Assembly: GCF_003044035.1 (NCBI RefSeq)
Contig: NZ_NVQC01000038.1
Coordinates: 6,669-38,668 of the forward strand
Length of the DNA stretch: 32,000 nt
Direction of reading: 5' to 3'
Source of the DNA: Candidatus Methylomirabilis limnetica
GTDB lineage: Bacteria > Methylomirabilota > Methylomirabilia > Methylomirabilales > Methylomirabilaceae
Shown: positions 3,095 through 28,989 of the stretch, piece after piece
How the letters are laid out: every line of letters starts with the position of its first letter
Position numbering within the stretch: position 1 is the stretch's first letter
Position numbers and translations under genes: made by a program
The notes under the pieces: generated by a model
The model's input: the letters and a program-made list of their open reading frames with translations, nothing else
Database searches by the model: none
What the model was told of the DNA's origin: nothing

Positions 3095-3597
3095 TCATGG
3101 CACCGACGCTTGCAATGGCGTCGCCTCCCTTGCAGATCGGCTGATAGCAAGGTAACAGATAATGGCTATAAGGAATTGCCCCGTATAGGCAATGCTGGAG
3201 GCCAAGGCAGCACCTATCACACCGTATCGAGGGATGAGGACCAAGTCCAAAACCACTGTGAGAGCCACTACAACGCCCGCGTTAATGGAGTTATAGGCAG
3301 GGCGCCCCCCCTCTCCCGGTAATGTCGCTGCTGAACACCTTGACACCGCCCAGGAGCACAACGCCCGCCAACAGCACCAGCATTGGCATATAAGCACTCA
3401 CAAATGCCGACGCGTAGATAACAGGTATCGAGGCAGCTCCCCACCTCTACAGCAGATCCATCCGAGCCCTCACCACATAGATCCACCCCACAGTCATCAC
3501 CACGGACTGAAGTAGTCCAACGATGGACAGGACCTACACGATCGAAATCGTGGGTGCCCACTTCGGGCCGCGCACACAAAGCAGCCCGAGAATTAGG
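3095..3597 (-). pseudogene. remnant of a second Wzx/MOP-type polysaccharide flippase (C-terminal part only, with stops and a frameshift)
   Basis: ORF 3095..3397 ends with a typical flippase C-terminus (YNSINAGVVVALTVVLDLVLIPRYGVIGAALASSIAYTGQFLIAIICYLAISRS). Upstream hydrophobic segments (PLILGLLCVRGPKW..., VLSIVGLLQSVVMTVGWIYVV..., AASIPVIYASAFVSAYMPMLVLLAGVVLLGG) lie in another frame and are broken by two TAG stops. No intact N-terminal half exists. Confidence 0.5.
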
Positions 3598-8990: not shown

Positions 8991-9350
8991 CTCCCCTCAC
9001 CCCCCCATCCTCACCTTCCCCCTCGTAGGGGGGAAGGGACAAATCCACCCACAGCTTCGACCTCTTTCCCCCTTAAAGGGAGATCACACTTTAGACCTCC
9101 TCCCCCCTTGAACGGGCCCACAACTGAATAAAGGCTCATGGTATGAAACTGTGGGTTACAGTTTCGACCTCCTCTTACCCCCCCATCCTCACCTTCCCCC
9201 TCGTGGGGGGGAAGGGAAGTGCGGTGGTACCTTCACCCGGTGGGGGGAAGGGATAAATCACCCACAGTTTCGACCTCTTTCCCCCTTGAAGGGAGATCAC
9301 ACTTTAAGCCTCCTCCCCCCTTGAGGGGGAGGATTGAGGTGGGGGGGAGA
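8991..9350. repeat. mosaic GC-rich multi-hairpin repeat cluster, two tandem composite copies
   Basis: 'ccccccatcctcaccttccccctcgtRggggggaaggga' occurs at 9001 and 9179. 'cacagYttcgacctctttcccccttRaagggagatcacactttaRRcctcctccccccttga' occurs at 9050 and 9263. The second copy also carries 'agtgcggtggtaccttcacccggtggggggaaggga' and 'gggggaggattgaggtgggggg'. Confidence 0.85.
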
Positions 9351-12254: not shown

Positions 12255-12274
12255 CGCCTTCTCCGGCTCAACCC

Positions 12275-12555
12275 TTTACCCCCCATCCTCACCTTCCCCC
12301 TCAAGGGGGGAAGGGATTTCTGAGGGATGGAGAGCCCACTGCCGCCTCCGCCTTCCGCTAACAAGAGTGGCCCGCAAGGGGGGAAGGGACACCCATTTCG
12401 GAATCCTCCCCCCTTGTGGGGGGGGTAATGCCTCTACTCGCAGGGGAGAACTCCAGACCTCCCGACAGACGGGCGGGGATAAACCCCGCCCCTACACCCC
12501 CCATCCTATCCTTCCCCCGCCAGGGGGGAAGGGAAGTGCGGCGGGACCTGTCCGG
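12275..12555. repeat. mosaic GC-rich multi-hairpin repeat cluster
   Basis: Contains 'ccccccatcctcaccttccccctcaaggggggaaggga', 'cctccccccttgtgggggggg', 'gggcggggataaaccccgcccctacaccccccatcctatccttcccccgccaggggggaagggaagtgcggcggg'. These are the same modules as at 9.0, 15.2, 15.6, 16.1, 17.0 and 18.9 kb. Confidence 0.85.
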
Positions 12556-12640
12556 ATAATGACAAAGCCCACCTGCCGCAATGGAGCGTAGCGGAATAGC
12601 GATCAGGTGCAGCACCTTGTTAGGCAAAGATTTCATCAAC

Positions 12641-12841
12641 TTATACGGTCTCAAATTGCAAACTCTTTAGCATTTGCACTGGGACGCGCTTGCTTAAGCC
12701 CAGTATCTCAACCCCGACTACGTTGTCATTTGCATCATAGTCGAGAATTACGCCTGGTTTAACCTCCTCGGACTCGACAATGGCTGACTCATCGAGCCGA
12801 AAATATAACGCGTCATTCTTGTGATCCACCTTTAATCTCAT
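12641..12841 (-). CDS. DUF2283-family small protein (putative antitoxin partner of DUF4258)
   Basis: 66 aa: MRLKVDHKNDALYFRLDES...GVILDYDANDNVVGVEILGLS, the typical DUF2283 pattern. Its start overlaps the upstream stop as ATGA (12838-12841). Confidence 0.8.
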   Translation of the reverse strand: MRLKVDHKNDALYFRLDESAIVESEEVKPGVILDYDANDNVVGVEILGLSKRVPVQMLKSLQFETV

Positions 12842-13086
12842 TGCGGCCTCCTTACTCTACGGTCAAAGAAGACAGTGACGATTCTCTGAGGCCGGGCATC
12901 CGGATTCACAACAACCCGTAAATATCGTCCACCGTGCTGCTCAATAGATCGAATATAGTGAAGCATTCCATCATCCTTTGGTTGCTTCTTCTCGGGATCT
13001 TCTAAAGCCAACTCTACCCAAGCTTCTTGAATGTTCCGCTCCCTTAGCATATCATAAGCATGTTCAGAGAACTCATACTCGATCAT
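12838..13086 (-). CDS. DUF4258-family small protein (putative toxin)
   Basis: 82 aa: EFSEHAYDMLRERNIQEAWVELALEDP...GRYLRVVVNPDARPQRIVTVFFDRR. This is the DUF4258 pattern (H-A-x-x-M-L-x-x-R-x-I ... LRVVV ... IVTV). Confidence 0.8.
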   Translation of the reverse strand: MIEYEFSEHAYDMLRERNIQEAWVELALEDPEKKQPKDDGMLHYIRSIEQHGGRYLRVVVNPDARPQRIVTVFFDRRVRRPQ

Positions 13087-13114
13087 GCCTGCCTATGTGC
13101 CGCAGGCGCCGGAC

Positions 13115-13178
13115 CTCCATCCCCCCCACCCAGAGGGTACCCGGGAGAAGGGATAGGAGAGGGAGAGCCTTCCCTCCA
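13115..13178. repeat. degenerate member of the GC-rich repeat family
   Basis: 'catcccccccacccagagggtacccgggagaagggataggagagggagagccttccctcc' resembles the 18700-18750 copy ('cccccccacccgtcccctccccctcggaggggggagggtaagagggagag'). Confidence 0.4.
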
Positions 13179-13277
13179 TCGGCACCGTTCGGTCACATCG
13201 TGAGGCGTGAGGAGGAGCCCCTTATGCCTTCCGATTGAAGAACCACGTAACTTGCTCATCCTCGCTTTCACTCTCCG

Positions 13278-13589
13278 CTATGTCGTAAGGCGGCTAGACC
13301 TGTGATTGAGCCATTTCTTGAAAGAGGCCTGACTTTCGCCTGAGGGTTTCCCAGCCAATAGACCCTCAACGCTCACATCCTCATCGATGTCTTCCCAGTG
13401 GATACCCTGCCCCTCACCAATCAGCCTCCAGTGACTTCGTTCTTGTTGGGTCGCATGCACAAGGCGAGGGAACCACGCAAGTGGGACTGAGATCGTCCGC
13501 CCGTCGCTCAAATCCACGCTCAGCGTATCGTCGGTTACCGTAATGCTTTCAGCATTTGGAACCTCAATCTCAACTGCCGAAGTAGTCAT
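13278..13589 (-). CDS. DUF2442-family small protein
   Basis: MTTSAVEIEVPNAESITVTDDTLSVDLSDGRTISVPLAWFPRLVHATQQERSHWRLIGEGQGIHWEDIDEDVSVEGLL is the typical DUF2442 pattern. ATG 13589 is preferred over 13622 because GGAGG lies 8 nt upstream. It overlaps the upstream gene by 20 nt. Confidence 0.8.
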   Translation of the reverse strand: MTTSAVEIEVPNAESITVTDDTLSVDLSDGRTISVPLAWFPRLVHATQQERSHWRLIGEGQGIHWEDIDEDVSVEGLLAGKPSGESQASFKKWLNHRSSRLTT

Positions 13590-13806
13590 TCCACGCCTCC
13601 ATGAATCTTGGGTCATGCTCATTCACGAGTTGCTGAATTCGACCGATTTCTGCTCGAGTAAATCTACCACTCTTTTGTAGCCGTATCGGATCCAGCCAGA
13701 ACTTTGCAATTTTGCTGTTCCGTTCCACATGAATGTGCGGCGGTTCATCTCGATCGCCGGCGTAGAAGAAGAACCGATACGGGCCAACTTTCAGTACCGT
13801 CGGCAT
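13570..13806 (-). CDS. DUF4160-family small protein
   Basis: 78 aa: MPTVLKVGPYRFFFYAGDRDEPPHIHVERNSKIAKFWLDP is the typical DUF4160 N-terminus. The ATG lies 5 nt after the DegT stop. Confidence 0.8.
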   Translation of the reverse strand: MPTVLKVGPYRFFFYAGDRDEPPHIHVERNSKIAKFWLDPIRLQKSGRFTRAEIGRIQQLVNEHDPRFMEAWNDYFGS

Positions 13807-13811
13807 GAGCC

Positions 13812-15005
13812 CTATCTCCGAAGGGTGTGGAGTGTGTCGTGTACGGACTCGATCACTCGCCCTATGTCGGCATTCGTCATCGCCGGATAGATTGGGAGCG
13901 AGACCGCACGCTCGAAGATATGTTCGGCGTTCGGAAACGCTCCCTGATGGTAGCCAAATGACCGCTGATAGACGGGGTGCAGATGAAGGGGAATGAAGTG
14001 AACGGAGGTCCCAATGCCCTTCTCTCCAAGGGAGCGAATGACCTCGTCTCGCCCACTAGCCAAGGCGGGAAGATTGAGTTGTAAGATGTACAGGTGCCAG
14101 GCGTGTGTGCCGTAGTCGGCCTCTTGAGGGATCACGCACGTCTCCAGACCTGAGAAGCTCTCGCTATACATCCGAGCAATCTCTCGCCGTCGCTTGTAAA
14201 AGTCATCCGACCTTCTGAGTTGCTGGATTCCCAACGCCGCAGCCAGATCGGTCAGGTTGTATTTAAATCCGAAATCGAGGATCTCGTAATACCAGTGTCC
14301 CTTATCGGAGTACCGGTTCCAGGCATCACCACTCAGACCATGGAGGCTCATCCGCTTCATTCTGGCGGCATGGTCGTCGCGCATCGTCGCGATCATCCCG
14401 CCCTCTCCAGTGGTTATCGGCTTGGTGGCATAAAAGCTGAAGGCCGTGAGATCACCAATAGCCCCGATCATCTTTCCTTTGTAGGTGGCATGAAGGGCAT
14501 GAGCGGCATCCTCAATGACGTGAAGGTGATGCTCCCTGGCAAGTTCCATGATCGGATCCATGTCACATGCCTGCCCGGCGATGTGAACGGGGATGATGGC
14601 CTTGGTCTTCGGCGTGATCAGCGGTGCTACCGTAGCCGCATCAATATTGAAGGTGTCAGGCCGGCAGTCGGCCAGGACAGGACGAGCCCCGAGGTAAGTC
14701 ACCACTTCTCCGGTGGCGGCAAACGTATAGGTGGGGAGGATCACCTCGTCGCCTGCCCCGACGCCAACTGCATCGAGAGCCAGATGGAGCGCGGCGGTGC
14801 AGGAGTTGACGGCAATGGCATGCTTGGCGCCAACGTAGGCGGCAAAGGCCTCCTCGAATTGTCTGACCTTCGGACCAGTCGTCAGCCAGCCGGAGCGAAG
14901 CACTTCGACGACTTCGGCGATCTCTTCTTCGCCAATCGAGGGGAGATGGAAGGGAATCTTTTGTTGTTGTCCGTTCTGCATGTTGTTCACAGTAACAAGC
15001 GGCAT
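13812..15005 (-). CDS. DegT/DnrJ/EryC1/StrS-family PLP-dependent sugar aminotransferase (PglE-like)
   Basis: 397-aa ORF. 'LPSIGEEEIAEVVEVLRSGWLTTGPKVRQFEEAFAAYVGAKHAIAVNSCTAALHLAL', 'HVIEDAAHA' and the Lys motif 'FSFYATKPITTGEGGMI' are family hallmarks. Confidence 0.9.
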   Translation of the reverse strand: MPLVTVNNMQNGQQQKIPFHLPSIGEEEIAEVVEVLRSGWLTTGPKVRQFEEAFAAYVGAKHAIAVNSCTAALHLALDAVGVGAGDEVILPTYTFAATGEVVTYLGARPVLADCRPDTFNIDAATVAPLITPKTKAIIPVHIAGQACDMDPIMELAREHHLHVIEDAAHALHATYKGKMIGAIGDLTAFSFYATKPITTGEGGMIATMRDDHAARMKRMSLHGLSGDAWNRYSDKGHWYYEILDFGFKYNLTDLAAALGIQQLRRSDDFYKRRREIARMYSESFSGLETCVIPQEADYGTHAWHLYILQLNLPALASGRDEVIRSLGEKGIGTSVHFIPLHLHPVYQRSFGYHQGAFPNAEHIFERAVSLPIYPAMTNADIGRVIESVHDTLHTLRR

Positions 15006-15045
15006 TTGCTATCTCTTGCCATCCATCACGCTCTTCTTCTTCTTC

Positions 15046-15188
15046 CTAGTGTAGTATATCCAACGATTCTTTTCAATCCGTTCGCCCTGAGCCTGTCGAA
15101 GGGTGAAGTATTTCAATTGGTTCCGTTCATGGGTTCGACAAGCTCACCACGAACGGATTGTAAAGGTATTTGTGAGGCACTACACTAG
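15046..15188. repeat. 143-bp imperfect palindromic (inverted-duplication) element, MITE-like
   Basis: Perfect 10-bp termini: 'ctagtgtagt' (15046-15055) / 'actacactag' (15179-15188). Perfect 11-bp inner pair: 'caatccgttcg' (15074-15084) / 'cgaacggattg' (15150-15160). A 12/13 pair: 'tgagcctgtcgaa' (15088-15100) / 'ttcgacaagctca' (15134-15146). Confidence 0.55.
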
Positions 15189-15207
15189 AGTCTTGGGCTC
15201 ATGGCAC

Positions 15208-15317
15208 GTGGGATGGGCGGGGATAAACCCCGCCCCTACATCCCCCCCATCCTCACCTTCCCCCGCCAGGGGAGAAGGGAAGTGCGGCGGTACCTTCACC
15301 CGGTGGGGGGAGGGAAG
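15208..15317. repeat. canonical ~110-bp unit of the GC-rich multi-hairpin repeat
   Basis: 'gtgggatgggcggggataaaccccgcccctacatcccccccatcctcaccttcccccgccaggggagaagggaagtgcggcggtaccttcacccggtggggggaggga'. Confidence 0.9.
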
Positions 15318-15325
15318 TATGATTG

Positions 15326-15544
15326 TTAGCCCTTGATAACTTGCTCCTCTATCGGGACCTTGCTTATGAGGAGCTCTTTCATGTCTACTTTCTTGCTAGC
15401 ATTATCAATGTCGATACCCACGATATTCCCATCAACATCATAATCGAGGATCACTCCTTCCGATATCTCTTTGCTGTCAGCGCTGACCTTGCCCGACAAA
15501 TCTATGTAGAGAGAATCAGTGTCTGGATAGTAGTTCAACCTCAT
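15326..15544 (-). CDS. DUF2283-family small protein, orphan (no DUF4258 partner adjacent)
   Basis: 72 aa: MRLNYYPDTDSLYIDLSGKVSADSKEISEGVILDYDVDGNIVGIDIDNAS. Paralog of 12641..12841. Confidence 0.75.
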   Translation of the reverse strand: MRLNYYPDTDSLYIDLSGKVSADSKEISEGVILDYDVDGNIVGIDIDNASKKVDMKELLISKVPIEEQVIKG

Positions 15545-15566
15545 GGCTTATACCCCCGATGTCGCA

Positions 15567-15699
15567 GGGGAAGGCTTTACGCTCTCCCGTGGGATGGGCG
15601 GGGATAAACCCCGCCCCTACATCCCCTCATCCTGTCCTTCCCCCACAAGTAGGGAAGGGAGGTGCGGTGGTACCTTCACCCGGGGAGGGGAAGGGAAAG
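15567..15699. repeat. GC-rich multi-hairpin repeat unit
   Basis: 'ggggaaggctttacgctctcccgtgggatgggcggggataaaccccgcccctacatcccctcatcctgtccttcccccacaagtagggaagggaggtgcggtggtaccttcacccggggaggggaaggga'. Confidence 0.9.
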
Positions 15700-15756
15700 A
15701 ATCGCTTGCCCCGCCGTGCTCATTCCAGCTTGCGAGAGGAGTCCAGATACGAGCGG

Positions 15757-16056
15757 TTAGGCTCTCTTTGGCTTCGCTGTATGCTTTTTGGGGAGTAGTG
15801 GGATTAAACACCGCAAAGCCCTATTTACAGACTCTGAGTTTGGGAAATATGCTCGAGTATCCGGCTCTAGAACCACTATGCCCTCTTTAGGCATCACGTC
15901 CTTAACAACAGTTGTACCATCTGCCTTACGGATAGTCATCGTATACCCAGCTTGCATAGTCCTATAATGTTTACCACGCACTCCACACCTAAAATCATAT
16001 TCGGTACGCATATCGTTGTCTTCCACCTGTACCATTTTAGTCGCCACCTTCTTCAT
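15757..16056 (-). CDS. small conserved protein, antitoxin-like, orphan
   Basis: 99 aa, with ATG 16056. 'EYDFRCGVRGKHY' and 'VVLEPDTRAYFPNSESVNRALRCLIPLL' match a motif pair (EYDF..G.RGK.Y ... V.LDPDV...FPdSeSVNeALR) that I recall from small proteins next to toxin genes. I cannot name the family with certainty. Confidence 0.5.
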   Translation of the reverse strand: MKKVATKMVQVEDNDMRTEYDFRCGVRGKHYRTMQAGYTMTIRKADGTTVVKDVMPKEGIVVLEPDTRAYFPNSESVNRALRCLIPLLPKKHTAKPKRA

Positions 16057-16071
16057 AAAGTTCCCGCTCCG

Positions 16072-16221
16072 ATGAGGTGGAGGGTATACTGGGAAGGCTT
16101 ACGCTCTCCCGTGGGATGGGCGGGGATAAACCCCGCCCCCACATCCCCCCCATCCTCACCTTCCCCCGCCACGGGGGAAGGGAAGCGCGGTGGTACCTTC
16201 ACCAGGTGGTGGGAGAGAGGG
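16072..16221. repeat. GC-rich multi-hairpin repeat unit
   Basis: 'gaggtggagggtatactgggaaggcttacgctctcccgtgggatgggcggggataaaccccgcccccacatcccccccatcctcaccttcccccgccacgggggaagggaagcgcggtggtaccttcaccaggtggtggg'. Confidence 0.9.
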
Positions 16222-16294
16222 TCCGATGGCGTGTAGTGAGCGAAACAGACCGCAAACACACTGTTATCCGAAGTTGCCCGGCTTGTTCCTACGA

Positions 16295-16540
16295 TCAGGC
16301 AAAGGCTTTTGCCGGCATCTCAATGTAGCGATCTGGTTCTTCTACCTTACCATGAATGGCAAAGAACTGCCGCTCGATTTCCTTGAGAACAACCGCATCG
16401 TAGTAGACCATGCCACAATTCAGGCATACTTCAACAGGGGTATTCGGCACCAGCAAGTATTTCCCCTCGTGGCTATAGAGATACTCAATCCTTCGTTCCT
16501 CATGGCGGTCACTGCCGCAGAAATTACACTCTATTGCCAT
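16295..16540 (-). CDS. YgiT/MqsA-type zinc-finger small protein (putative antitoxin)
   Basis: MAIECNFCGSDRHEERRIEYLYSHEGKYLLVPNTPVEVCLNCGMVYYDAVVLKEIE has two CxxC pairs with YgiT-type spacing. ATG 16540 overlaps the upstream TAG stop by 10 nt (aTGGCAATAG). Confidence 0.75.
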   Translation of the reverse strand: MAIECNFCGSDRHEERRIEYLYSHEGKYLLVPNTPVEVCLNCGMVYYDAVVLKEIERQFFAIHGKVEEPDRYIEMPAKAFA

Positions 16541-16848
16541 CCTCGTCTTTCTCCTCGCGTCCAAGGGTCAATGAACTTCGGCGGGCGTGGAATGTATACG
16601 GTGATAAGTACTACCTTTTCCCCACGCCAGCCGCATACGACGTGAATAGGTATCTTCCCAGCAAAACCTACGACCAGACAACTCTCACCGCGTCCAATAT
16701 CAGGATACTGCTCAAGGATCTTACTATTCAATAGAGCCTCTTCTACTTGAGCGAAGGTTAATCCGTCCGCTCTCCGCTCAATCTCGGCATGATGGCTGTA
16801 AACATACCTGTTGTCGCGAACCCTCGCCTTTATCTCTTCAATGTCCAT
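16531..16848 (-). CDS. DUF4258-family small protein (putative toxin), second paralog
   Basis: 105 aa: YVYSHHAEIERRADGLTFAQVEEALLNSKILEQYPDIGRGESCLVVGFAGKIPIHVVCGWRGEKVVLITVYIP. Confidence 0.8.
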   Translation of the reverse strand: MDIEEIKARVRDNRYVYSHHAEIERRADGLTFAQVEEALLNSKILEQYPDIGRGESCLVVGFAGKIPIHVVCGWRGEKVVLITVYIPRPPKFIDPWTRGERRGWQ

Positions 16849-16900
16849 CTCTGCTCATAACGATACCCACTACTACTGACGGCTCCCACGTCATGCGTCG

Positions 16901-17192
16901 CTCCTCCTCCCCCCATCCCAGCCTTCCGCCGCCAAGGGGGAAGGGAAGTGCGGTGGTGCCTTCACCTGGTGGGGGGAAGGGATGCCCATGGTGGATTTTT
17001 CCCCCTCACGCCTGACGCCCATCTCCCTTCCGAGGGGAGGATTCCCTCTCCGACCTCCTCCCCCCTTGTGGGGGAGGATTGAGGTGGGGGGTATACTGGG
17101 AAGGCTTACGCTCTCCCGTGGGATGGGCGGGGATAAACCCCGCCCCTACATCCCCCCCATCCTCACCTTCCCCCGCCAGAGGGGAAGGGATC
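16901..17192. repeat. mosaic GC-rich multi-hairpin repeat cluster (about two and a half units)
   Basis: Contains 'ccccccatcccagccttccgccgccaagggggaagggaagtgcggtggtgccttcacctggtggggggaaggga', 'cctcctccccccttgtgggggaggattgaggtggggggtatactgggaaggcttacgctctcccgtgggatgggcggggataaaccccgcccctacatcccccccatcctcaccttcccccgccagaggggaaggga'. Confidence 0.9.
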
Positions 17193-18548: not shown

Positions 18549-18645
18549 CGATACCCCGCGGCTTGCCGCGAGTTCGTCATACCGGCGGAAGCCGGTATCC
18601 AGAGGGCCGACTGGATTCCGTGTCAAGCACGGAATGACGGGCCAG
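18549..18645. repeat. ~95-bp two-hairpin repeat (second family), copy A
   Basis: 'cgataccccgcggcttgccgcgagttcgtcataccggcggaagccggtatccagagggccgactggattccgtgtcaagcacggaatgacgggccag' is near-identical to 28897-28989. Perfect hairpins: ataccggc-ggaa-gccggtat and attccgtg-tcaagc-acggaat. The head 'cgataccccgcRgcttgccgcg' recurs at 18655-18677. Confidence 0.85.
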
Positions 18646-18699
18646 AACAGAAGACGATACCCCGCAGCTTGCCGCGGGGCAGTTCATTGGTTTTAAGGT

Positions 18700-18775
18700 C
18701 CCCCCCACCCGTCCCCTCCCCCTCGGAGGGGGGAGGGTAAGAGGGAGAGTGCGGCCTTTCATGCCCATTGGCGAG
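18700..18775. repeat. GC-rich repeat, variant unit with the 'gggagagtgcggcctttcatgcccattggcg' tail
   Basis: 'cccccccacccgtcccctccccctcggaggggggagggtaagagggagagtgcggcctttcatgcccattggcgag'. The tail matches 18930-18962 at 28 of 33 positions. Confidence 0.7.
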
Positions 18776-18825
18776 TCAAGGCTCATGAGGTACTGCCCCG
18801 AAAGTCCCCCTCAACTACCTGATCC

Positions 18826-18960
18826 GTAGGGGCGGGGTTTATCCCCGCCCGGTAAGCGGGAGGGCATAAAGCCCTCCCCTACATCCCCCCATCCTATCCT
18901 TCCCCCGCAAGGGGGGAAGGGATATCGGCGGGAGAGTCCGGACTTTCATGCTCATGGGCG
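18826..18960. repeat. GC-rich multi-hairpin repeat, rearranged unit overlapping the 3' end of the Wzc-like gene
   Basis: Inverted copy of the ATAAA-loop hairpin ('gtaggggcggggtttatccccgccc', 18826-18850). A covariant direct copy follows ('gggagggcataaagccctcccctacatccccccatcctatccttcccccgcaaggggggaaggga', 18858-18921). Then the tail 'gggagagtccggactttcatgctcatgggcg'. Confidence 0.85.
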
Positions 18961-21293
18961 TGGGGGGCTCCTGGGGTATTGCTTCGATCATGGTGCCCCC
19001 TCGCGACGATACCGTGCCGTTCGGATTTCCGATGATAATAGTCGTGATAGTCCTGATAGTACGAATACCCGTGGCTATGCAGATCTATGTTGTTCAGGAC
19101 GACGCCCAAGATTTTCGCGTTGACTGCGTTGAGCGTTCTCACCGCTCTTTGAGCGGCATCTCGAACCGTTTTGCCTGCACGGATAACAAACACGGTGCCC
19201 TCGGCGAATGTGGATAGCAGGACGCTATCGGTAAACCCAAGCACCGGCGGCGCATCGATAATCACATACTTGAACTGCTGACAGAGCAGTTCCAAGGCAT
19301 CCCTCATCCGCTCGGAGCCAAGTAACTCTGCCGGGTTCAGTGGGGATTGTCCCGCCGGCAGTAGAGAGAGGTTGGAGGTTGCCGTTGGTTTGATGACGGC
19401 GCTAAGCTCTGCGTCTCCCACAAGGAAGTTCGACAGCCCTGGCGTTCGATCCTGCCCCAGGATCCGGTGACAATCGGGATAGCGCATATCCGCATCGATG
19501 AGCAGAACGTCACCGCCAAGTTGCGACAGCGCGACAGAGAGATTGATCGACACGCCTGTTTTACCGTCGCCCGGTTCCGCACTGGTCACGAGGAGCAGCT
19601 TAGGAGGGTTCTCCGGGAGAGAGAAGAGGAGCGAGGTCCGGATGTTCCGGATGGCCTCACCAACCAACGAGGACTGATCCTGGAGCATGACCAGTTCAAA
19701 CGACTTCGCGTCCTGGCCGTTGTTGGTCGTTCCTTTCAGCCGCCTCCTTCGTTCGACGGAGGCTAATGCCGGCACGGCCCCCAGAATCGGCAATGCGAAC
19801 GTCGATTCTACCTCTTCGATCTTATTGACAGTGTTGTCAAGGTAGTCGGAGAAGAACGCCAGGCCGATCCCCAGGCCGAGACCGAGGACGATCCCGAGCG
19901 TCAGGTTGAGCAGTTTCTTAGGGCGATCGGGCCAGAGCGGAATTTTCGCCAGGTCAGTGATCATAATATTCGTGGAATCGAGTCCCGCAGAGACAGCCGT
20001 CTCTTTCATGCGCTGCAACAGGCCGGAATACAGTTCGCGGTTGATGTCAACCTCTCGCTTCAGGATGTTGTACTGAATGGAATCCTCGTTGGTCTTGAGG
20101 GTCACCGTTTTCTGCTTATCCACCGCTGATTGGAGCAGATGTTCCGATTTCAGGCCTGCCTCATAACTCGACCGGAGGCCATCGACAACCCTTTGGACCT
20201 CACCATCAAGCTTTATCTTCACTTCGTCGATATTACTCTTCAGCGCCACCATCCTGGGATAGTCCGACAGGAACGTCTCAGACAGCTTCCTGTATTCGGC
20301 CTGAAGGCGGAAATACTCTGTCTTCAAGCTAGAGATCAGCGGATTTTCCAACACCGATGGGATCGACTGAAAATCCTGTCCCTGAGTCTGCCGATGCAGC
20401 GCCTCCTTCGCCAGCCGCTCGCTGCGCGCTTTCATCAGGGCATCAGTGAGCAGTGAGAGCTGCTTGGTGGTCTGTTCCTGTTTTTCATCTAGCACGAGGT
20501 ATTGCTTCTGCTTGGCAAATCGCTGAAGCAGTTCATCAGAGCTCTCGAGCTTGATCCTCACCTCTTGAATCTGTTTCGCCAGGAAGTCGCCGGCATATTT
20601 CATCGCGCCCAGCCTCTGCTCGATGCTCTGTTCGATAAAGTTCTCTGCCATCGCGTTGGCAATTTGGGCGGACAGTTCCGGCGAGGGGCTGAGGAAGGCG
20701 ATCTTCACCAGGCGGGTATTCTTGACGGGTTCAATCTCCAGCTTTTTCAGGAAACTCTGCACCACGGGCGATTCGGTGATTGACGCCTCGCCGGAAGCCT
20801 GCTGCGTAGACGGCTGAGGGCGTATGAGGTCCACAAGATTGGTGAGCCAAGTCCATGTTGGAGAGGCCGGACCTTGCATTCCAGAGCCCAAGAATTCCGG
20901 GTTTGCGTCGAGGTTGAAGCGTTTGACGACCCGCTCCGCAAGCGAATAGCTTGTCAGCAGCTTGTATTGCGTCTGATAATAATCATCGGTCTCTTTGTTG
21001 GCAGACGGCGAGACGTCATCGAACTTCAGGATCTTGAGTTCTGCCCTGTCGATCTTGATGGTGGCGGTGGCCTTATACACCGGCCGCTGAACAAACGTCG
21101 CAGTGGCAACGGTAACCACCGTGACAAGAAAACAGGTGAGGACGATCCAGCGATGCTTGAGGAGCACCTGCCAGTAATCCCTGAGATGCGGATCTTTCTT
21201 TTGCTCGGGAAACGCCTGGACAGGCCATAGCTGAGGCTTCGCCAAGCCTCCGCTGCCCCCCTTCACCTTTACGAGCGCATTATCGGGGTCCAT
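18894..21293 (-). CDS. wzc: Wzc/GumC-type polysaccharide co-polymerase fused to a BY-kinase (tyrosine autokinase) domain
   Basis: 799 aa. N-terminal TM plus Wzz-like region (HLRDYWQVLLKHRWIVLTCFLVTVVTV...YKATATIKIDR). Long coiled periplasmic part. Second TM (LNLTLGIVLGLGLGIGLAFF). P-loop 'TSAEPGDGKTGVSINLS', 'VLLIDADMRYP', 'YVIIDAPPVL'. Tyr cluster 'HGYSYYQDYHDYYH'. Confidence 0.9.
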   Translation of the reverse strand: MDPDNALVKVKGGSGGLAKPQLWPVQAFPEQKKDPHLRDYWQVLLKHRWIVLTCFLVTVVTVATATFVQRPVYKATATIKIDRAELKILKFDDVSPSANKETDDYYQTQYKLLTSYSLAERVVKRFNLDANPEFLGSGMQGPASPTWTWLTNLVDLIRPQPSTQQASGEASITESPVVQSFLKKLEIEPVKNTRLVKIAFLSPSPELSAQIANAMAENFIEQSIEQRLGAMKYAGDFLAKQIQEVRIKLESSDELLQRFAKQKQYLVLDEKQEQTTKQLSLLTDALMKARSERLAKEALHRQTQGQDFQSIPSVLENPLISSLKTEYFRLQAEYRKLSETFLSDYPRMVALKSNIDEVKIKLDGEVQRVVDGLRSSYEAGLKSEHLLQSAVDKQKTVTLKTNEDSIQYNILKREVDINRELYSGLLQRMKETAVSAGLDSTNIMITDLAKIPLWPDRPKKLLNLTLGIVLGLGLGIGLAFFSDYLDNTVNKIEEVESTFALPILGAVPALASVERRRRLKGTTNNGQDAKSFELVMLQDQSSLVGEAIRNIRTSLLFSLPENPPKLLLVTSAEPGDGKTGVSINLSVALSQLGGDVLLIDADMRYPDCHRILGQDRTPGLSNFLVGDAELSAVIKPTATSNLSLLPAGQSPLNPAELLGSERMRDALELLCQQFKYVIIDAPPVLGFTDSVLLSTFAEGTVFVIRAGKTVRDAAQRAVRTLNAVNAKILGVVLNNIDLHSHGYSYYQDYHDYYHRKSERHGIVARGHHDRSNTPGAPHAHEHESPDSPADIPSPLAGEG

Positions 21294-21312
21294 CTATCTC
21301 TATCCTTGACTG

Positions 21313-21387
21313 AGAAAATCTCCCCTCGCCCCTCTTTTCCAAAGAGGGGTAAATCCTCCCTTTGGCAAAGGGAGGTGAGGAGGGATT
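21313..21387. repeat. 75-bp two-hairpin element (third family), copy A, in the wza-wzc intergenic gap
   Basis: 'agaaaatctcccctcgcccctcttttccaaagaggggtaaatcctccctttggcaaagggaggtgaggagggatt'. It matches 22471-22545 at 71 of 75 positions. Hairpins: cccctcttt-tcc-aaagagggg and cctcccttt-ggc-aaagggagg. Confidence 0.9.
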
Positions 21388-21392
21388 GTTCA

Positions 21393-22484
21393 TCATAAAG
21401 ACGCGCCGACGCCGAACCGGATGAACTCAAGAAAACCGAACCAAGCCGACTTAAACCCATTGCTGTTGACCAGGATCACGTCGTTCTTCATCACAAGGGG
21501 GCCTTTCTGGCCCTGCTCGATTTCGTTGAGACTGACCTCAATGATCTGCTTCTGTTGTCCTTTAATCTCGCGGAAGATCTTGACGCTTTCAAAATCTGCG
21601 ACCTTCGTGACACCGCCGGCTTCGATGATCGCTTGATCAACCGTAACATCCCTGCCCTTCAAGACATACGAACCAGGTTTCTGGACCGATCCCCCCACAA
21701 AGTAGCTGCCCGCCTTTGGAACGTGGACGACGTCTCCGGACTGCAGGGGCGCGTTCAACTCATCCTTCCCATCGACCAGCATCTCCTCCAGGTTGATTTC
21801 GAGAACCGCCTCCTGAGCGGATTTGCCATCCGATGCGGTCTGGGGCTGAGAGCCAAGCGGTCCTGGCGCTGCTGACGACTTCACAACTTTACGAATCAGG
21901 TAGACGATCTGGTCAGATTGCTCTGTGAGCCCCTCGGCCATTGCCAGCATATCGACTACCGAGCGCGGGCCACTGACCTCAAAGACGCCGGGCTTTTTCA
22001 CGGCGCCGAGGACACTAATTCGGTGACTGTGATGCTCGAGCACGAAGACGCTGACCTGAGGATCCCTGATGTACCTGGAGCCGAGCGCCGCCTTCACGAT
22101 CGCTTCAAGCTCCATAGCGGTCTTTCCGCCGGCGGCTACCGTTCCCGCCAGCGGGAGCGTCATGAGCCCTTCTGCGCCGACTCTGGCCTTGATCTTGCTG
22201 AGTTCCGCGATGTCGAAGACGGAGATCTCTAGCAGATCGCCTGTCCCCAACCGATAATCACCAGACAGACTGTCGGAATTCGCCATGGCAAGGATCCTGC
22301 TGTTGAGGGCCATAGTGCCACGGCTCTCGTCACGGGTCGCGTTGGCGATCAAGGCTTCGGTCTTTGAAATCCCGGACCTTGTCGCGCAACCGGAAGCGAA
22401 GAGAGCGAGCACCGCCACAAACAACAGGATATAGCTATTAACCGCATCAAATTTGAATTGACATCGATTAAGAAAATCTCCCAT
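21393..22484 (-). CDS. wza: Wza-type polysaccharide export outer-membrane lipoprotein (Poly_export + SLBB repeats)
   Basis: Starting at ATG 22484 gives MGDFLNRCQFKFDAVNSYILLFVAVLALFASGCATR, which has a lipobox (LFASGC). 'YRLGTGDLLEISVF', 'GLMTLPLAGTVAAGGKT' and repeated 'V.V.G.V.KPG.Y.L' SLBB-like segments are present. The longer GTG 22661 start would translate a repeat element. Confidence 0.85.
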   Translation of the reverse strand: MGDFLNRCQFKFDAVNSYILLFVAVLALFASGCATRSGISKTEALIANATRDESRGTMALNSRILAMANSDSLSGDYRLGTGDLLEISVFDIAELSKIKARVGAEGLMTLPLAGTVAAGGKTAMELEAIVKAALGSRYIRDPQVSVFVLEHHSHRISVLGAVKKPGVFEVSGPRSVVDMLAMAEGLTEQSDQIVYLIRKVVKSSAAPGPLGSQPQTASDGKSAQEAVLEINLEEMLVDGKDELNAPLQSGDVVHVPKAGSYFVGGSVQKPGSYVLKGRDVTVDQAIIEAGGVTKVADFESVKIFREIKGQQKQIIEVSLNEIEQGQKGPLVMKNDVILVNSNGFKSAWFGFLEFIRFGVGASL

Positions 22485-22545
22485 CGCCCCTCTTTTCCAA
22501 AGAGAGGTACATCCTCCCTTTGGCAAAGGGAGGTCAGGAGGGATT
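22471..22545. repeat. 75-bp two-hairpin element (third family), copy B, overlapping the wza start
   Basis: 'agaaaatctcccatcgcccctcttttccaaagagaggtacatcctccctttggcaaagggaggtcaggagggatt'. Confidence 0.9.
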
Positions 22546-22727
22546 CTTCGATACGGTAAAGTCACTATTTTTAGATAGTTAATCGCTGTTTCCCTATCCG
22601 ATCCTATCCTCTGTTTTAACATCTCTCGGTCTTTCGTCTTCTCCTGTTTTCCACAGTACACAGGAGGGCATCGATCGCGTAAATCCCCTCTCCCATCAGA
22701 ACAAGACGGAGCGGTGTAGGCTATTGC

Positions 22728-24047
22728 CTATTTAAGGGCCACGTCACTGGCAACGGAGTTATTTCCATTGCTGTGTAATGCCAATGAACCACCTGCGGTA
22801 GCTCCTGCCGTGCCCCCAGTCACTGCCGCAGCGAGCCCCCACCCAGCCGCTGGGACAAAGAACGCTGCTGCGAGACCGCATTCCTCAACGACTACCCATC
22901 GCTCTTCAGGTTTTTCTTCCCACGCCCACGTAAAGCCGTCGTACAGATCCTGGGTCGGTCGCGGCGGTTCGGCATTCGGAGAGCCAAGTTGCACCTCCTG
23001 CCACCCACCCGACACCTGTGGCGGGTTCGACGGATGCCAGGCCCATACATGCTCCGACTTGGCAGCTTGGGATGGCGGACTGACCGGCGGCGGGAGCTTG
23101 GCAGCCTCCCCGCTGGAAGCCCGGCGGAACGCTGCAAATTGACCGCACTCTCTCTGGGCAACCACCCATTGATCCTTCCACGCCCACGCAAAGCCTTGAC
23201 GCAGATCCTGGTCCGGCGCCGGAGGCGTCACTGGTGGCACGCCAAGCCTCATCTCCTGCCACCCGCCCTGAACCGCTTGGGGGTGAGAGGGGTGCCATGT
23301 CCAGACATGTTCAGGCTTTGCCGCCTGGCTAGGAGGATCGGACGGCGGAGGGGTTCGCTGGCCTCCAGGCTGAGCAGCCGCGTACTGTTTGAATCCCCCA
23401 AACGATTGAGCGAGCATGGTCCGTACCTGTCCTTCTCTCAGCCGTTCTGTGACGGAGCCGTTCTGCGAGACGAGGACCGCCTCACCAGACAGCAGGCGGA
23501 CTCGAGGAATCCCCCCCTTCTGAGCTGTGATCACACCCAGCGTGTCTCGCTGAGCCTGTGCATCCGTGCTGACGCGGGTCGCTATGGGGTTGTGATCAGA
23601 GCGCCCCATGCCGGCCACCGCAGTCTGAATCATCCCCCCCGGCATCCAAAGCCGAACAGACGAGGAGGGGCGCAATCGAAACAACATGTTGCCCTCTGCC
23701 ATGCGTACCGTCGTGGAAGGCCCCATCACAGCGATGGCAAGCTCTGTCGTGGGACTGGCTTCCAGTCGGCTTCCGTCGGACAGGGTCAAGGCAACGATCC
23801 CGGATCGGGCCCTGACCAGCATCTTGTCGAACACTGGAAGCGTCCCTGAGCCCAACGAAATCCAGCTCTTCCCGTCGAAGGAAACCTGCGCGGGCGACGT
23901 CCCGCGGATTTCACCGAGCGGTCGATTGAACAGAGGTGCTCCCGCGATCGCCACCGGCGTGATCGCTGACAAGGCGACCATAAGGAGCACCGCAACCGTA
24001 CAACCAATACGACTTCCACGATCTACCCAAGAGGCGAACATTACCAT
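22728..24047 (-). CDS. secreted or anchored protein: signal/TM segment, FecR-like domain, two tandem Trp-rich ~75-aa repeats, Gly/Ala-rich C-terminus
   Basis: 439 aa starting at ATG 24047. N-terminal hydrophobic stretch: CTVAVLLMVALSAITPVAIAG. FecR-like part: 'LPVFDKMLVRARSGIVALTLSDGSRLEASPTTELAIAV...VRMAEGNMLF'. Repeats at aa 233-307 and 319-396 (nt 23127-23351 and 22860-23093). Confidence 0.6.
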   Translation of the reverse strand: MVMFASWVDRGSRIGCTVAVLLMVALSAITPVAIAGAPLFNRPLGEIRGTSPAQVSFDGKSWISLGSGTLPVFDKMLVRARSGIVALTLSDGSRLEASPTTELAIAVMGPSTTVRMAEGNMLFRLRPSSSVRLWMPGGMIQTAVAGMGRSDHNPIATRVSTDAQAQRDTLGVITAQKGGIPRVRLLSGEAVLVSQNGSVTERLREGQVRTMLAQSFGGFKQYAAAQPGGQRTPPPSDPPSQAAKPEHVWTWHPSHPQAVQGGWQEMRLGVPPVTPPAPDQDLRQGFAWAWKDQWVVAQRECGQFAAFRRASSGEAAKLPPPVSPPSQAAKSEHVWAWHPSNPPQVSGGWQEVQLGSPNAEPPRPTQDLYDGFTWAWEEKPEERWVVVEECGLAAAFFVPAAGWGLAAAVTGGTAGATAGGSLALHSNGNNSVASDVALK

Positions 24048-25566: not shown

Positions 25567-25604
25567 CCCCTCCCCCCACCGAGGGGGAGGGCGTGGGTGG
25601 GGTA
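25567..25604. repeat. isolated GC-rich hairpin related to the main repeat family
   Basis: 'cccctccccccaccgagggggagggcgtgggtggggta'. The stem ccctcccc/ggggaggg resembles the 'cctccccccttgagggggagg' module. Confidence 0.4.
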
Positions 25605-28896: not shown

Positions 28897-28989
28897 TCCC
28901 CGGCTTGCCGCGAGTTCGTCATACCGGCGGAAGCCGGTATCCAACAGGCCCCGGCTGGATTCCGTGTCAAGCACGGAATGACGGGCCAG
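28897..28989. repeat. ~95-bp two-hairpin repeat (second family), copy B
   Basis: 'tccccggcttgccgcgagttcgtcataccggcggaagccggtatccaacaggccccggctggattccgtgtcaagcacggaatgacgggccag'. Confidence 0.85.

What the first reader, a model, noticed from the sequence alone, without database searches (positions are those of the whole stretch)
21313..22545. A 75-bp two-hairpin element precedes both wza and wzc, and one base difference creates the wza start codon
Seen: 21313-21387 and 22471-22545 match at 71 of 75 positions in the same orientation. Copy A starts 5 nt after the wza stop and ends 19 nt before the wzc ATG.

Copy B contains the best wza start. Its 'cat' at 22482-22484 reads 'cct' in copy A, so a single C/A difference makes the ATG. 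The first codons (MGDFL) and the putative SD (aaGAGGGGcgATG on the mRNA strand) are repeat sequence. That SD forms the 3' arm of the hairpin ccYctcttt-gga-aaagagggg.

The second difference (g/a at 22505) keeps pairing only as G-U on the minus-strand transcript. It would be a C-A mismatch on the other strand.

Inference: the element is folded in the mRNA and may gate translation of the two export genes by sequestering the SD. It may also be an example of a repeat co-opted as a translation start.
Basis: partly seen in the sequence, partly recalled or inferred. Interest (0 to 1): 0.65.

Follow-up and report, generated by a model that had tools for sequence, protein, structure and literature searches.

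The report
Mobile palindromic repeat inserted into wza
The 75-bp "two-hairpin element" is the conserved core of a widespread, multi-copy selfish palindromic repeat; one copy landed between wza and wzc and a second, full-length 147-bp copy landed in frame inside the signal-peptide coding part of wza, so it is an insertion scar that may have supplied a new start codon, not a regulator of the two export genes.

Summary
The two 75-nt stretches match at 71/75. The ATG at 22484-22482 differs by one base from AGG in copy A, and its SD lies in the 3' arm of hairpin 2.

- The repeat is not specific to this locus. A scan found the same core in at least 120 stretches of about 50 genomes (Nitrospirota, Desulfobacterota, Acinetobacter). 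Copy A is closer to a deltaproteobacterial copy (73/75) than to copy B.
- Most copies sit inside a roughly 150-nt element with inverted arms ending TTAYTAA...TTARTAA. Copy B is a full-length copy of this kind (147 nt, 22437-22583). Copy A is core only.
- Five related loci lack both copies. Their wza-wzc spacer is about 20 nt. Their Wza N-termini show that copy B lies inside the ancestral signal-peptide coding region, in frame and without stops. The ancestral ATG (22622) is intact upstream.
- Across 138 copies there is no bias in orientation (30:38) and none toward gene starts.
- The wzc ribosome-binding site lies outside copy A and is accessible. The new wza ATG is buried (about 21 kcal/mol to open); the old ATG needs about 3.5.

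Which start is used remains open. The mature lipoprotein is the same either way. This is a new member of a known kind, of moderate interest.

The parts
22437..22583 (-). Copy B: full-length 147-nt palindromic element (ATTAAC...GGTTAAT) with degenerate inverted arms around the core. It is inserted between the Ala (GCG) and Ser (AGC) codons of the ancestral Wza signal-peptide n-region. It is in frame (49 codons) and has no stop codon.
   Evidence: nhmmer profile from other phyla: model positions 10-166, E=1e-33. Boundaries from the empty sites GGGAAACAGCC|AGCTATGTCC in L007 and L131. Length and translation.
22471..22545 (-). 75-nt conserved core of copy B: outer stem, hairpin 1 (CCTCCCTTT/AAAGGGAGG) and hairpin 2 (CCTCTCTTT/AAAGAGGGG).
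   Evidence: covariance model 22472-22547, 83.4 bits.
22482..22484 (-). Derived in-frame ATG inside the outer stem of the core (consensus AGG). Candidate new wza start.
   Evidence: T at this position in 0 of 103 other copies. RBS opening energy 20.7 kcal/mol.
22487..22492 (-). SD-like GAGGGG, the 3' arm of hairpin 2, 2 nt upstream of the new ATG.
   Evidence: Sequence; paired in both predicted folds.
22620..22622 (-). Ancestral wza start codon ATG (MLKQRIGSDRETA...). Its GACCGAGAG context is the same as in relatives.
   Evidence: Protein alignment. DNA of relatives: in L132 it is the only possible start. Opening energy 3.5 kcal/mol.
21393..22622 (-). wza (Poly_export + SLBB outer-membrane polysaccharide export lipoprotein). 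409 codons from the ancestral ATG or 363 from the new ATG. The lipobox Cys codon is at 22386-22388 in either case.
   Evidence: Pfam; homologues; translation.
21311..21398 (-). Copy A: core-only copy (75-nt core at 21313-21387) filling the wza-wzc spacer, which is 99 nt here and about 20 nt in relatives.
   Evidence: nhmmer model positions 41-128, E=2e-30; covariance model 93.2 bits; empty spacers in L008, L131, L132 and L135.
21294..21312 (-). wzc ribosome-binding region (cagtcAAGGAtagagatag). It lies outside the element and is conserved in relatives without the element.
   Evidence: opening energy 7.0 kcal/mol.
18894..21293 (-). wzc (Wzz + GNVR + P-loop tyrosine autokinase type co-polymerase).
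   Evidence: Pfam.

Best explanation
What it is. The 75-nt repeat is the conserved three-way-junction core of a family of small, non-coding, nested-palindrome repeats. The family is MITE/REP-like. Full-length copies are about 150 nt, with imperfect inverted arms ending TTAYTAA...TTARTAA. It is multi-copy and dispersed in many Nitrospirota and Desulfobacterota genomes. Core copies also occur in Acinetobacter and in this probable NC10 (Methylomirabilota) organism.

What happened here. After this lineage split from its roughly 90%-identical relatives, two independent copies entered the wza-wzc operon.
- A core-only copy entered the 20-nt wza-wzc spacer.
- A full-length 147-nt copy entered the coding sequence of the n-region of the Wza lipoprotein signal peptide.

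Why it is tolerated (inference). The second insertion is in frame and free of stops. It lies in the part of the pre-protein that signal peptidase II removes. Translation from the intact, accessible ancestral ATG (22622) can therefore read through it and still yield the normal mature Wza. A later G-to-T change made an internal in-frame ATG (22484) with an SD. It may serve as an alternative or replacement start, but it is buried in a very stable structure.

My split for the main start:
- ancestral ATG with read-through, about 0.55
- internal ATG, about 0.35
- other, or both about equally, about 0.10

The element is selfish DNA. It is not a dedicated translational gate for the two export genes.

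Shown:
- family membership
- that both copies are insertions, and their boundaries
- the open frame through copy B
- that the ATG is derived
- no positional or orientation bias in the family

Inferred:
- which start is used
- tolerance through cleavage of the signal peptide
- the mechanism of mobility
For: - Distribution. There are many near-identical copies per genome, for example CAVXFA01 and JBFLZS01, and copies often lie at contig ends.
- Full-length architecture. Inverted arms and TTAYTAA/TTARTAA termini are visible in the alignments.
- Window copies. A profile that excludes the window finds copy B full length and copy A core only. Copy A is 73/75 and 72/75 identical to copies in other phyla.
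- Absence in relatives. L007, L008/L009, L131, L132-134 and L135 lack both copies. The strain variant L130 has both, with identical cores.
- Position in wza. 37 of 40 close Wza homologues reach the lipobox, and their predicted starts lie about 9-16 codons upstream of the hydrophobic region in most. The other three predictions are truncated. The window carries the same N-terminus (MLKQRIGSDRETA), then 49 extra codons, then SYILLF...SGC.
- Open frame. On average only 8.6% of reading frames are open through a full-length copy. Only 23% of copies have a length divisible by 3.
- Family survey. 138 copies are mostly intergenic, with orientation 30:38, and lie nearer to stops than to starts.
- RBS accessibility.
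- No Rfam family matches, either in the window or in 12 loci of other phyla. No terminator is called.
Against: - No autonomous parent element or transposase was found in the 8-kb loci.
- No target-site duplication is present at either window site. Only 2 of 76 copies elsewhere have 8/9 flanking direct repeats, against 0.24 expected. Mobility is therefore inferred from distribution and is not demonstrated.
- The stem sequences are more than 95% conserved across phyla, including an invariant C.A mismatch and U.G pair (65/65). This is unusual for decaying selfish DNA and suggests that the core is under functional constraint of unknown kind.
- The canonical second start position (GTG in L130) is GGA in the window. 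The unique G-to-T makes a well-placed ATG with an SD. A 78-residue signal peptide would be abnormal. All three favour the internal start.
- ORF calling for the family survey was crude.
- The complete genome of the window organism was not available, so its copy number is unknown.
Confidence: 0.8

Rival explanations
1. Exaptation with structural gating. The internal ATG at 22484 is now the real Wza start. Because its SD and AUG are locked in the element's hairpins, translation depends on melting of the structure by temperature, a helicase, or ribosomes arriving from the upstream ATG.
For: - T at the ATG position occurs in 0 of 103 other copies.
- The ATG has a good SD and leaves an 18-residue n-region before the hydrophobic core.
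- A gene caller chose it.
- Both rare stem substitutions in copy B weaken the structure around the RBS. Reverting AUG to AGG raises the opening energy from 20.7 to 24.1 kcal/mol.
- The canonical second start position is GGA in the window and GTG in L130.
Against: - The opening energy of 20.7 kcal/mol is above that of all nine other starts tested (5.7-15).
- The upstream ATG is intact, accessible and in frame, with no stop through 49 inserted codons. That would be roughly a 2-3% coincidence if the region were untranslated. Chance cases do exist, however (L026 and L055).
- Most random stem substitutions are destabilising anyway.
- The arrangement is not conserved beyond one species.
Confidence: 0.3
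2. The core is a functional structured RNA or DNA module that hosts keep, for example as an mRNA 3'-end stabiliser, an intra-operon attenuator as described for REP/ERIC/Correia-type repeats, or a protein-binding site. On this view copy A tunes the wza:wzc expression ratio.
For: - The stems are very strongly conserved across phyla, while the loops and linkers vary.
- A divergent copy (L024:3567) keeps all three stems through paired changes.
- Copies lie nearer to upstream stops, at a median of 42 nt.
- The fold is stable, at -37 kcal/mol.
Against: - There is no orientation bias (30:38), although the element is asymmetric in sequence (115 against 55 bits).
- There is no G.U excess.
- Orthologous spacers lack it.
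- No terminator signature is found.
- No Rfam family matches.
Confidence: 0.15
3. A local duplication: one copy arose from the other within the operon as a shared cis-regulatory box for the two export genes.
For: The two copies have the same orientation, lie 1158 nt apart and match at 71/75.
Against: - Copy A is more similar to copies in other phyla than to copy B.
- Copy B has arms that copy A lacks.
- Relatives lack both copies.
Confidence: 0.02
4. An integron attC-like or other site-specific recombination site. The termini ATTAAC...GTTAAT resemble the RYYYAAC/GTTRRRY core sites.
For: - The structure is an imperfect palindrome with AAC/GTT-containing ends.
- No target-site duplication is present at the window sites.
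- Cassette-like small toxin-antitoxin genes lie nearby.
Against: - The termini do not fit the attC consensus: TATTAAC, and GTTAAT with T in place of R.
- Copies are dispersed singly and are not arranged in arrays in one orientation.
- The centre is conserved, whereas attC centres are variable.
- No integrase was seen.
Confidence: 0.03

Closest known systems
Rickettsia palindromic elements (RPEs)
   Same: Palindromic repeats of about 150 bp that insert in frame into protein-coding genes and carry a conserved open reading frame (review PMC10969869). Here copy B is 147 nt, in frame, and read as IPPDLPLPKGG...RGAMGDF. That frame is open in the core of 57 of 74 family copies.
   Different: The sequence and the lineage are unrelated. 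Only one in-gene case is documented here, and it lies in a cleaved signal peptide rather than in the mature protein. This family spans several phyla, and most of its copies are intergenic.
Bacterial MITEs (Correia/NEMIS, ERIC, RUP, BOX, QMITEs of Coxiella)
   Same: - Small, non-coding and multi-copy.
- Terminal inverted repeats.
- Fold into long hairpins when transcribed.
- Can create fusions and change expression of neighbouring genes (PMC10969869, PMC3184786, PMC5896051).
- Near-identical bursts of copies within single genomes.
   Different: - No clear target-site duplication.
- No parent insertion sequence identified.
- The conserved part is an internal three-way junction rather than the termini.
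- The same core occurs with different arms or with none.
- Cross-phylum identity above 90%.
REP / REPIN / BIME elements
   Same: Extragenic palindromes without target-site duplication, mostly downstream of genes, occasionally inside genes, and combined into larger composite structures (PMC3733652). The window also carries CGTC-tagged REP-like units (18556-18645, 28898-28989).
   Different: The core is 75 nt, against 20-40 nt for REPs. It has three stems and no GTAG or CGTC tag. Whether a RAYT gene is present could not be tested.
SD-sequestering 5'-UTR hairpins (RNA thermometers such as ROSE and fourU)
   Same: If ATG 22484 is used, its SD forms the 3' arm of a hairpin containing one G.U pair.
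   Different: It is far too stable (about 21 kcal/mol to open; the whole element folds at -34 to -45 kcal/mol). It is not conserved with the gene. It belongs to a repeat family that is inserted in either orientation.

Membership tests
MITE (bacterial miniature inverted-repeat transposable element) | Small (under about 500 bp) and without coding capacity for a transposase | tested here: met
   Full-length copies are 139-212 nt, median 158. Copy B is 147 nt. Its translations match no Pfam family.
MITE (bacterial miniature inverted-repeat transposable element) | Terminal inverted repeats | tested here: met
   The family consensus is TTATTAAnnGTCTCATAAT ... ATTATGAGACnnTTAATAA, with paired changes between subfamilies (GTCTCATAAT/ATTATGAGAC against GTCCATAAT/ATTATGGAC). 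The arms are degenerate in copy B and absent from copy A.
MITE (bacterial miniature inverted-repeat transposable element) | Target-site duplication flanking the element | tested here: inconclusive
   Neither window site has one when compared with the empty sites of relatives. Among 76 copies elsewhere, 2 have 8/9 flanking direct repeats, against 0.24 expected from shuffles. The remainder are at background level.
MITE (bacterial miniature inverted-repeat transposable element) | Many dispersed copies within a genome | tested here: met
   The truncated scan found at least 12 copies in CAVXFA01, at least 9 in JBFLZS01 and at least 8 in CAVXWK01. Only 2 copies are seen in the 32-kb window, and the rest of that genome was not available.
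MITE (bacterial miniature inverted-repeat transposable element) | Cognate autonomous insertion sequence with the same termini | tested here: inconclusive
   No isolated arms bracketing a gene were found in 120 loci of 8 kb. Whole genomes were not searched.
REP / REPIN (RAYT-associated) | 20-40-nt palindrome with an unpaired GTAG or CGTC tag | tested here: not met
   The core is 75 nt with three stems, and neither hairpin has a GTAG or CGTC tag. Definition taken from PMC3733652.
REP / REPIN (RAYT-associated) | RAYT transposase gene in the same genome | not testable with these tools
Rickettsia palindromic elements | Palindromic repeat of about 100-150 bp inserted in frame in an ORF | tested here: met
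   Copy B is 147 nt (49 codons), has no stop, and lies between conserved codons of wza.
Rickettsia palindromic elements | Sequence membership in one of the RPE families of Rickettsia | not tested
   No RPE sequences were compared. The host phyla are different, so this is an analogy only.
SD-sequestering regulatory hairpin / RNA thermometer | SD and/or AUG of the regulated gene paired in the leader | tested here: inconclusive
   Met for the candidate ATG 22484. Not met for wzc, whose SD lies outside the element with an opening energy of 7.0 kcal/mol. Whether 22484 is the start is unknown.
SD-sequestering regulatory hairpin / RNA thermometer | Conserved with the regulated gene in related organisms, in a fixed orientation | tested here: not met
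   Absent from five related wza-wzc loci. Family orientation relative to genes is 30:38.
SD-sequestering regulatory hairpin / RNA thermometer | Marginal stability that allows melting under physiological conditions | tested here: not met
   Opening energy is 20.7 kcal/mol. The element folds at -34 to -37 kcal/mol, and at -44.6 in its mRNA context.
Intrinsic terminator | G+C-rich hairpin directly followed by a T-run | tested here: not met
   The scan calls none inside either copy.
Any Rfam 15 family | Covariance-model score at or above the gathering threshold | tested here: not met
   No match in the window. Only chance-level microRNA hits with E above 0.2. No match to the element in 12 loci of other phyla.

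The most novel reading that the evidence does not exclude
The 75-nt three-way-junction core is not merely decaying selfish DNA. Its stems are more than 95% identical from NC10 to Nitrospirota, Desulfobacterota and Acinetobacter, with an invariant C.A mismatch and U.G pair. It occurs with different arms or with none, and it is absent from Rfam. On this reading it is a previously undescribed functional nucleic-acid module. One possibility is the recognition structure of a widespread mobilisation machinery that leaves no target-site duplication. Another is a host-recruited RNA or protein-binding element. In this operon it would have been exapted to supply the RBS and start codon of Wza under structure-gated initiation.
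Probability: 0.2. Interest if true: 0.7.

Novelty: new member of a known kind. Interest (0 to 1): 0.4.

Why it matters
- Annotation. The wza start here cannot be assigned from sequence alone, and the gene caller's choice rests on repeat sequence. The same trap probably exists wherever this repeat sits next to a gene start (L026 and L055).
- Evolution. This is a clean, datable example of a palindromic repeat landing in frame in a signal peptide, with empty sites in relatives and filled sites in two strains. A new in-frame start codon then arose inside the repeat. It shows how selfish repeats can remodel the 5' ends of genes at little cost, because the affected segment is cleaved off.
- Mobile DNA. 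A repeat family whose core is more than 90% identical across several phyla is worth describing. It has no Rfam entry, no identified transposase and no clear target-site duplication.

Tried and rejected
- Rfam at gathering and at E-value thresholds, on the window and on 12 loci of other phyla: nothing beyond chance-level microRNA hits and one unrelated tRNA.
- Intrinsic-terminator and sigma-70 promoter scans of 21200-22800: nothing inside the elements.
- Viral contigs: 0 matches to the core pattern.
- PLSDB plasmids: only 37-nt partial hits in two Acinetobacter indicus plasmids, at positions with no annotated feature.
- Search for a parent insertion sequence, meaning isolated arms flanking a gene: none in the loci held.
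- Target-site duplication: none at the window sites, and only a weak excess elsewhere.
- attC hypothesis: rejected because the termini do not fit the consensus, there are no arrays, and the centre is conserved.
- Strand test by G.U against A.C counts: no asymmetry.
- RNAalifold on the full-length MAFFT alignment gave a poor consensus because the arm subfamilies misalign. The stems were therefore defined by hand.
- Protein search with the 49-residue insert peptide: no candidates. Pfam on element translations: nothing.
- Four literature searches found no description of this family, only general reviews of MITEs, REPs and RPEs. This is not proof that the family is undescribed.
- My first reading of GCGATTAAC / GCGGTTAAT as a target-site duplication was wrong. 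These are the inverted termini of the element.
Full report
**1. The observation**

On the minus (coding) strand, 21387-21313 (copy A) and 22545-22471 (copy B) match at 71 of 75 positions. The differences are at 21325/22483, 21347/22505, 21352/22510 and 21377/22535. The similarity runs to 84 nt (D7).

- Copy A starts 5 nt after the wza stop and ends 19 nt before the wzc ATG.
- Copy B contains ATG at 22484-22482 where copy A has AGG.
- GAGGGG, 2 nt upstream of that ATG, is the 3' arm of hairpin 2.

Neither hairpin 21-mer is expected by chance in the window. Folding shows more than two hairpins. In copy A an outer stem (AAUC-C-CUCCUC / GAGGGG-A-GAUU) encloses both hairpins, at -37 kcal/mol and z = -3.1. 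The two hairpins can also pair with each other.

**2. The genes and the organism**

The window corresponds to metagenome contigs (ENA ERZ4201065/63 and Logan runs). ORF 21393-22484 carries Poly_export and SLBB domains and is Wza-like. ORF 18894-21293 carries Wzz, GNVR and a P-loop domain and is Wzc-like. One close Wza homologue, 88% identical, is labelled candidate division NC10. I therefore treat the organism as probably Methylomirabilota.

**3. Copy B lies inside the ancestral wza**

I aligned the 40 closest Wza homologues. The 37 predictions that reach the lipobox have a conserved lipoprotein signal peptide. Their predicted starts lie about 9-16 codons upstream of the hydrophobic core in most, for example MLEQRVRPGREIASD-ILILLLGVVCALFTSGC. 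The other three predictions are truncated at the N-terminus.

The long open frame of the window reads as follows:
- the same N-terminus, MLKQRIGSDRETA
- 49 extra residues, INYLKIVTLPYRRIPPDLPLPKGGCTSLWKRGAMGDFLNRCQFKFDAVN
- SYILLFVAVLALFASGC

At the DNA level the relatives read GGGAAACAGCC|AGCTATGTCC (L007, L131). The window reads GGGAAACAGCG[ATTAAC...147 nt...GGTTAAT]AGCTATATCC. The insertion is exactly 49 codons and has no stop.

The upstream ATG (22622) keeps the context GACCGAGAGATG. This is the same context as in L132, where it is the only possible start.

**4. Copy A is also an insertion**

Four related loci have a wza-wzc spacer of about 20 nt (L008/L009, L131, L132-134, L135). In L007 the same spacer is occupied by a GIY-YIG ORF instead. 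The window has 99 nt.

The wzc SD region (AAGGATAGAG...) is conserved in the relatives and lies outside the element. A profile search at E up to 10 finds no copy of the element at either site in these loci. A strain variant from another sample (L130, ERZ27249638) has both copies with identical cores. Both insertions therefore predate that strain split and postdate the split from the roughly 90%-identical relatives.

**5. The repeat is a cross-phylum family**

One scan of species-representative genomes used CCTCCCTTTNNNAAAGGGAGGNNNNNCCNCTCTTT. These are mainly Nitrospirota and Desulfobacterota/'Deltaproteobacteria' MAGs, plus three Acinetobacter genomes.

The parts of the element that the pattern did not specify are also conserved. 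These are the outer stem (AAATCCCTCC / GGGGAGATTT) and the right arm of hairpin 2.

Most copies carry longer inverted arms. The consensus is:

TTATTAA-nn-GTCTCATAAT...GACAT...[core]...ATGTC...ATTATGAGAC-nn-TTAATAA

A second subfamily has GTCCATAAT/ATTATGGAC. The total length has a median of 158 nt.

Several genomes hold many near-identical copies at unrelated sites, and copies often sit at contig ends. Both are signs of recent amplification.

A profile built without the window sequences matches copy B over its full length (22587-22432, E=1e-33). It matches copy A over the core only (21398-21311, E=2e-30). The sense strand scores about twice the antisense strand.

Copy A is 73/75 identical to a copy in a deltaproteobacterial MAG (L037) and 72/75 to one in a Nitrospirae MAG (L122). 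Both are closer than copy B. The two window copies are thus independent family members. They are not a locus-specific pair.

**6. Tests of the regulatory interpretation**

(a) Position and orientation. I surveyed 138 copies in other genomes using crude ORF calls:

| Location | Copies |
|---|---|
| Spacer between genes on the same strand | 68 |
| Between divergent genes | 14 |
| Between convergent genes | 16 |
| Overlapping a called ORF | 14 |
| Locus edge | 26 |

In same-strand spacers the orientation is 30 same to 38 opposite. The median distance is 42 nt to the upstream stop and 88 nt to the downstream start.

(b) Strand-specific RNA pairing. In 65 non-redundant full-length copies, departures from the majority pair are 13 G.U, 20 A.C and 12 other. 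The single G.U in copy B therefore carries no evidential weight.

(c) Accessibility. The table gives the energy needed to open positions -14 to +5.

| Start | Opening energy (kcal/mol) |
|---|---|
| ATG 22484 (new) | 20.7 |
| ATG 22622 (ancestral) | 3.5 |
| wzc ATG | 7.0 |
| Nine other starts in the window | 5.7-15 |

Copy A does not sequester the wzc RBS. The new wza ATG is the least accessible start examined.

(d) Known RNA families and signals. No Rfam family matches and no terminator is called.

**7. Which wza start is used?**

For the new ATG:
- T at that position occurs in 0 of 103 other copies: 100 have G and 3 have A.
- It has a good SD and leaves an 18-residue n-region.
- The canonical 'second' start position is GTG in L130 but GGA in the window.
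- A 78-residue signal peptide would be unusual.

For the ancestral ATG:
- Its context is conserved, and it works in a relative.
- It is accessible.
- The frame stays open through the whole insertion, and the insertion length is a multiple of 3.

Among 81 full-length copies, on average only 8.6% of reading frames are open, and only 23% of copies have a length divisible by 3. The combination would be roughly a 2-3% coincidence if the region were untranslated. Chance cases do exist: L026 and L055 are in frame with a downstream gene whose true start is clearly further downstream.

The wza frame reads the core as IPPxLPLxKGG...RGDF. That frame is open in 57 of 74 copies, which recalls the conserved open reading frames of Rickettsia palindromic elements.

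My estimate for the main start:
- ancestral ATG with read-through, 0.55
- internal ATG, 0.35
- other, or both about equally, 0.10

Both routes give the same mature lipoprotein after cleavage at the lipobox Cys (22386-22388). That is the simplest reason why the insertion is tolerated. This last step is inference.

**8. What kind of element is it?**

It has most features of a bacterial MITE: small size, inverted termini, many copies, and bursts within genomes. Three things do not fit the usual picture:
- I found no parent insertion sequence.
- There is no target-site duplication at the two window sites. Elsewhere there is only a weak excess: 2 of 76 copies with 8/9 flanking repeats, against 0.24 expected.
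- The most conserved part is internal. It is a three-way junction whose stems are more than 95% identical across phyla, with an invariant C.A mismatch and U.G pair.

The core also occurs with different arms (for example in Candidatus Sulfobium) or with none (Acinetobacter, copy A). Other hairpin modules are nested in the loop of hairpin 2 in several genomes. One divergent copy (L024:3567) keeps all three stems through paired changes.

A covariance model of the core (R1) gives only weak hits (14-18 bits) to the many other pyrimidine-arm/purine-arm hairpin repeats in the window.

The closest analogies:
- Rickettsia palindromic elements, for the in-frame insertion (PMC10969869)
- MITEs such as Correia or ERIC (PMC3184786)
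- REP/REPIN elements (PMC3733652)

It is not a REP by the tag criterion. It is not an RNA thermometer by stability, conservation or orientation.

**9. Verdict**

The sequence observation is right. The 'one base makes the ATG' point is right, and I have shown that the change is derived. The proposal that a shared folded element gates translation of wza and wzc is not supported.

What is there is a pair of insertions of a widespread selfish palindromic repeat. One of them is an in-frame insertion in the Wza signal-peptide coding region and may have donated a start codon.

Novelty: a new member of a known kind. The cross-phylum conservation of the core is the most intriguing point left open. Interest: 0.4.

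Noticed in passing
window 8991-9346, 12269-12535, 15170-15697, 16073-16220, 16899-17191, 18691-18923, 25567-25604: At least 12 further hairpin repeats have a pyrimidine 5' arm and a purine 3' arm: CCTTCCCCC-n5-GGGGGAAGG, TCCTCCCCC-n5-GGGGGAGGA and CCCTCCCCC-n6-GGGGGAGGG. GGGCGGGG-ATAAA-CCCCGCCC hairpins occur as well. Together they form composite units of 50-110 nt (families D1-D5). They fill spacers that are 7-20 nt in relative L008; for example, wzc to the TPR gene is 410 nt here and 7 nt there. The covariance model of the 75-nt core hits them only weakly (14-18 bits).
   Followed up: partly
window 18556-18645 and 28898-28989: Two copies (92-97% identical) of a pair of CGTC-tagged REP-like hairpins: tCGTCATACCGGCGGAAGCCGGTATccag and ggATTCCGTGtcaagCACGGAATGACGg. 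Similar units flank copies of the main element in other phyla (flanks of L010, L015, L049 and L127). Compare the CGTC REP superfamily of Di Nocera et al. 2013.
   Followed up: partly
window about 12300-17000 (L001 14447-18654): Small toxin-antitoxin-like genes (DUF4258 + YokU, DUF4160 + DUF2442, and two DUF2283) lie between the polysaccharide genes, each bordered by the hairpin repeats. The syntenic locus L008 has none of them. The arrangement looks cassette-like.
   Followed up: no
L007 11138-11500 (wza-wzc spacer of a relative): In relative ERZ27253376 the same wza-wzc spacer holds a small GIY-YIG nuclease ORF (…SFWVYLLRCADG…). The gene caller fused it to wzc (863 aa). This spacer seems to be a recurrent landing site for selfish elements.
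   Followed up: no
L029, L053, L089, L102, L100, L044, L059/L080 (core region): Other G+C-rich hairpin modules are nested exactly in the loop of hairpin 2 of the core, for example CCCCTCTTTGG-CCGCCGGCCCATAGGGCCTCTGGCCCGGAGGG-CAAAGAGG. This suggests modular hairpin-in-hairpin insertion.
   Followed up: no
L030 4174-4268, L050 4891-4960, L085 3467-3542; plasmids NZ_CP044019.1 and NZ_CP094257.1: Core-only copies of the same element occur in Acinetobacter chromosomes. Partial copies of 37 nt occur in two Acinetobacter indicus plasmids. This genus is far from the anaerobic and groundwater lineages that hold most copies.
   Followed up: partly
L026 about 3400-3490 and L055 about 5620-5700: Here the element is in frame with a long downstream ORF (501 and 404 codons). 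In L026 the true start is clearly downstream of the element (SD + ATGAAACGATTT..., itself a signal peptide). Gene callers could easily over-extend such genes into the repeat.
   Followed up: partly
window 9384-12254: A single 956-aa ORF combines Bac_transf, Polysacc_synt_2 (epimerase/dehydratase) and a C-terminal response-regulator receiver domain. In relative L007 the sugar transferase (333 aa) and the dehydratase-receiver protein (598 aa) are separate genes.
   Followed up: no
window 22593-22612 vs L130: Four substitutions between the two strains fall between the ancestral ATG and the core of the element. Three cluster within about 10 nt, in codons 7 and 9 of the old N-terminus (GGATCGGAT against GTGTCGGGT). 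One lies in the left arm of the element (TAT against AAT). All are non-synonymous, and one removes a GTG at the canonical start position. By contrast, the 109 nt ending just after the ATG and the 75-nt core show no change.
   Followed up: partly
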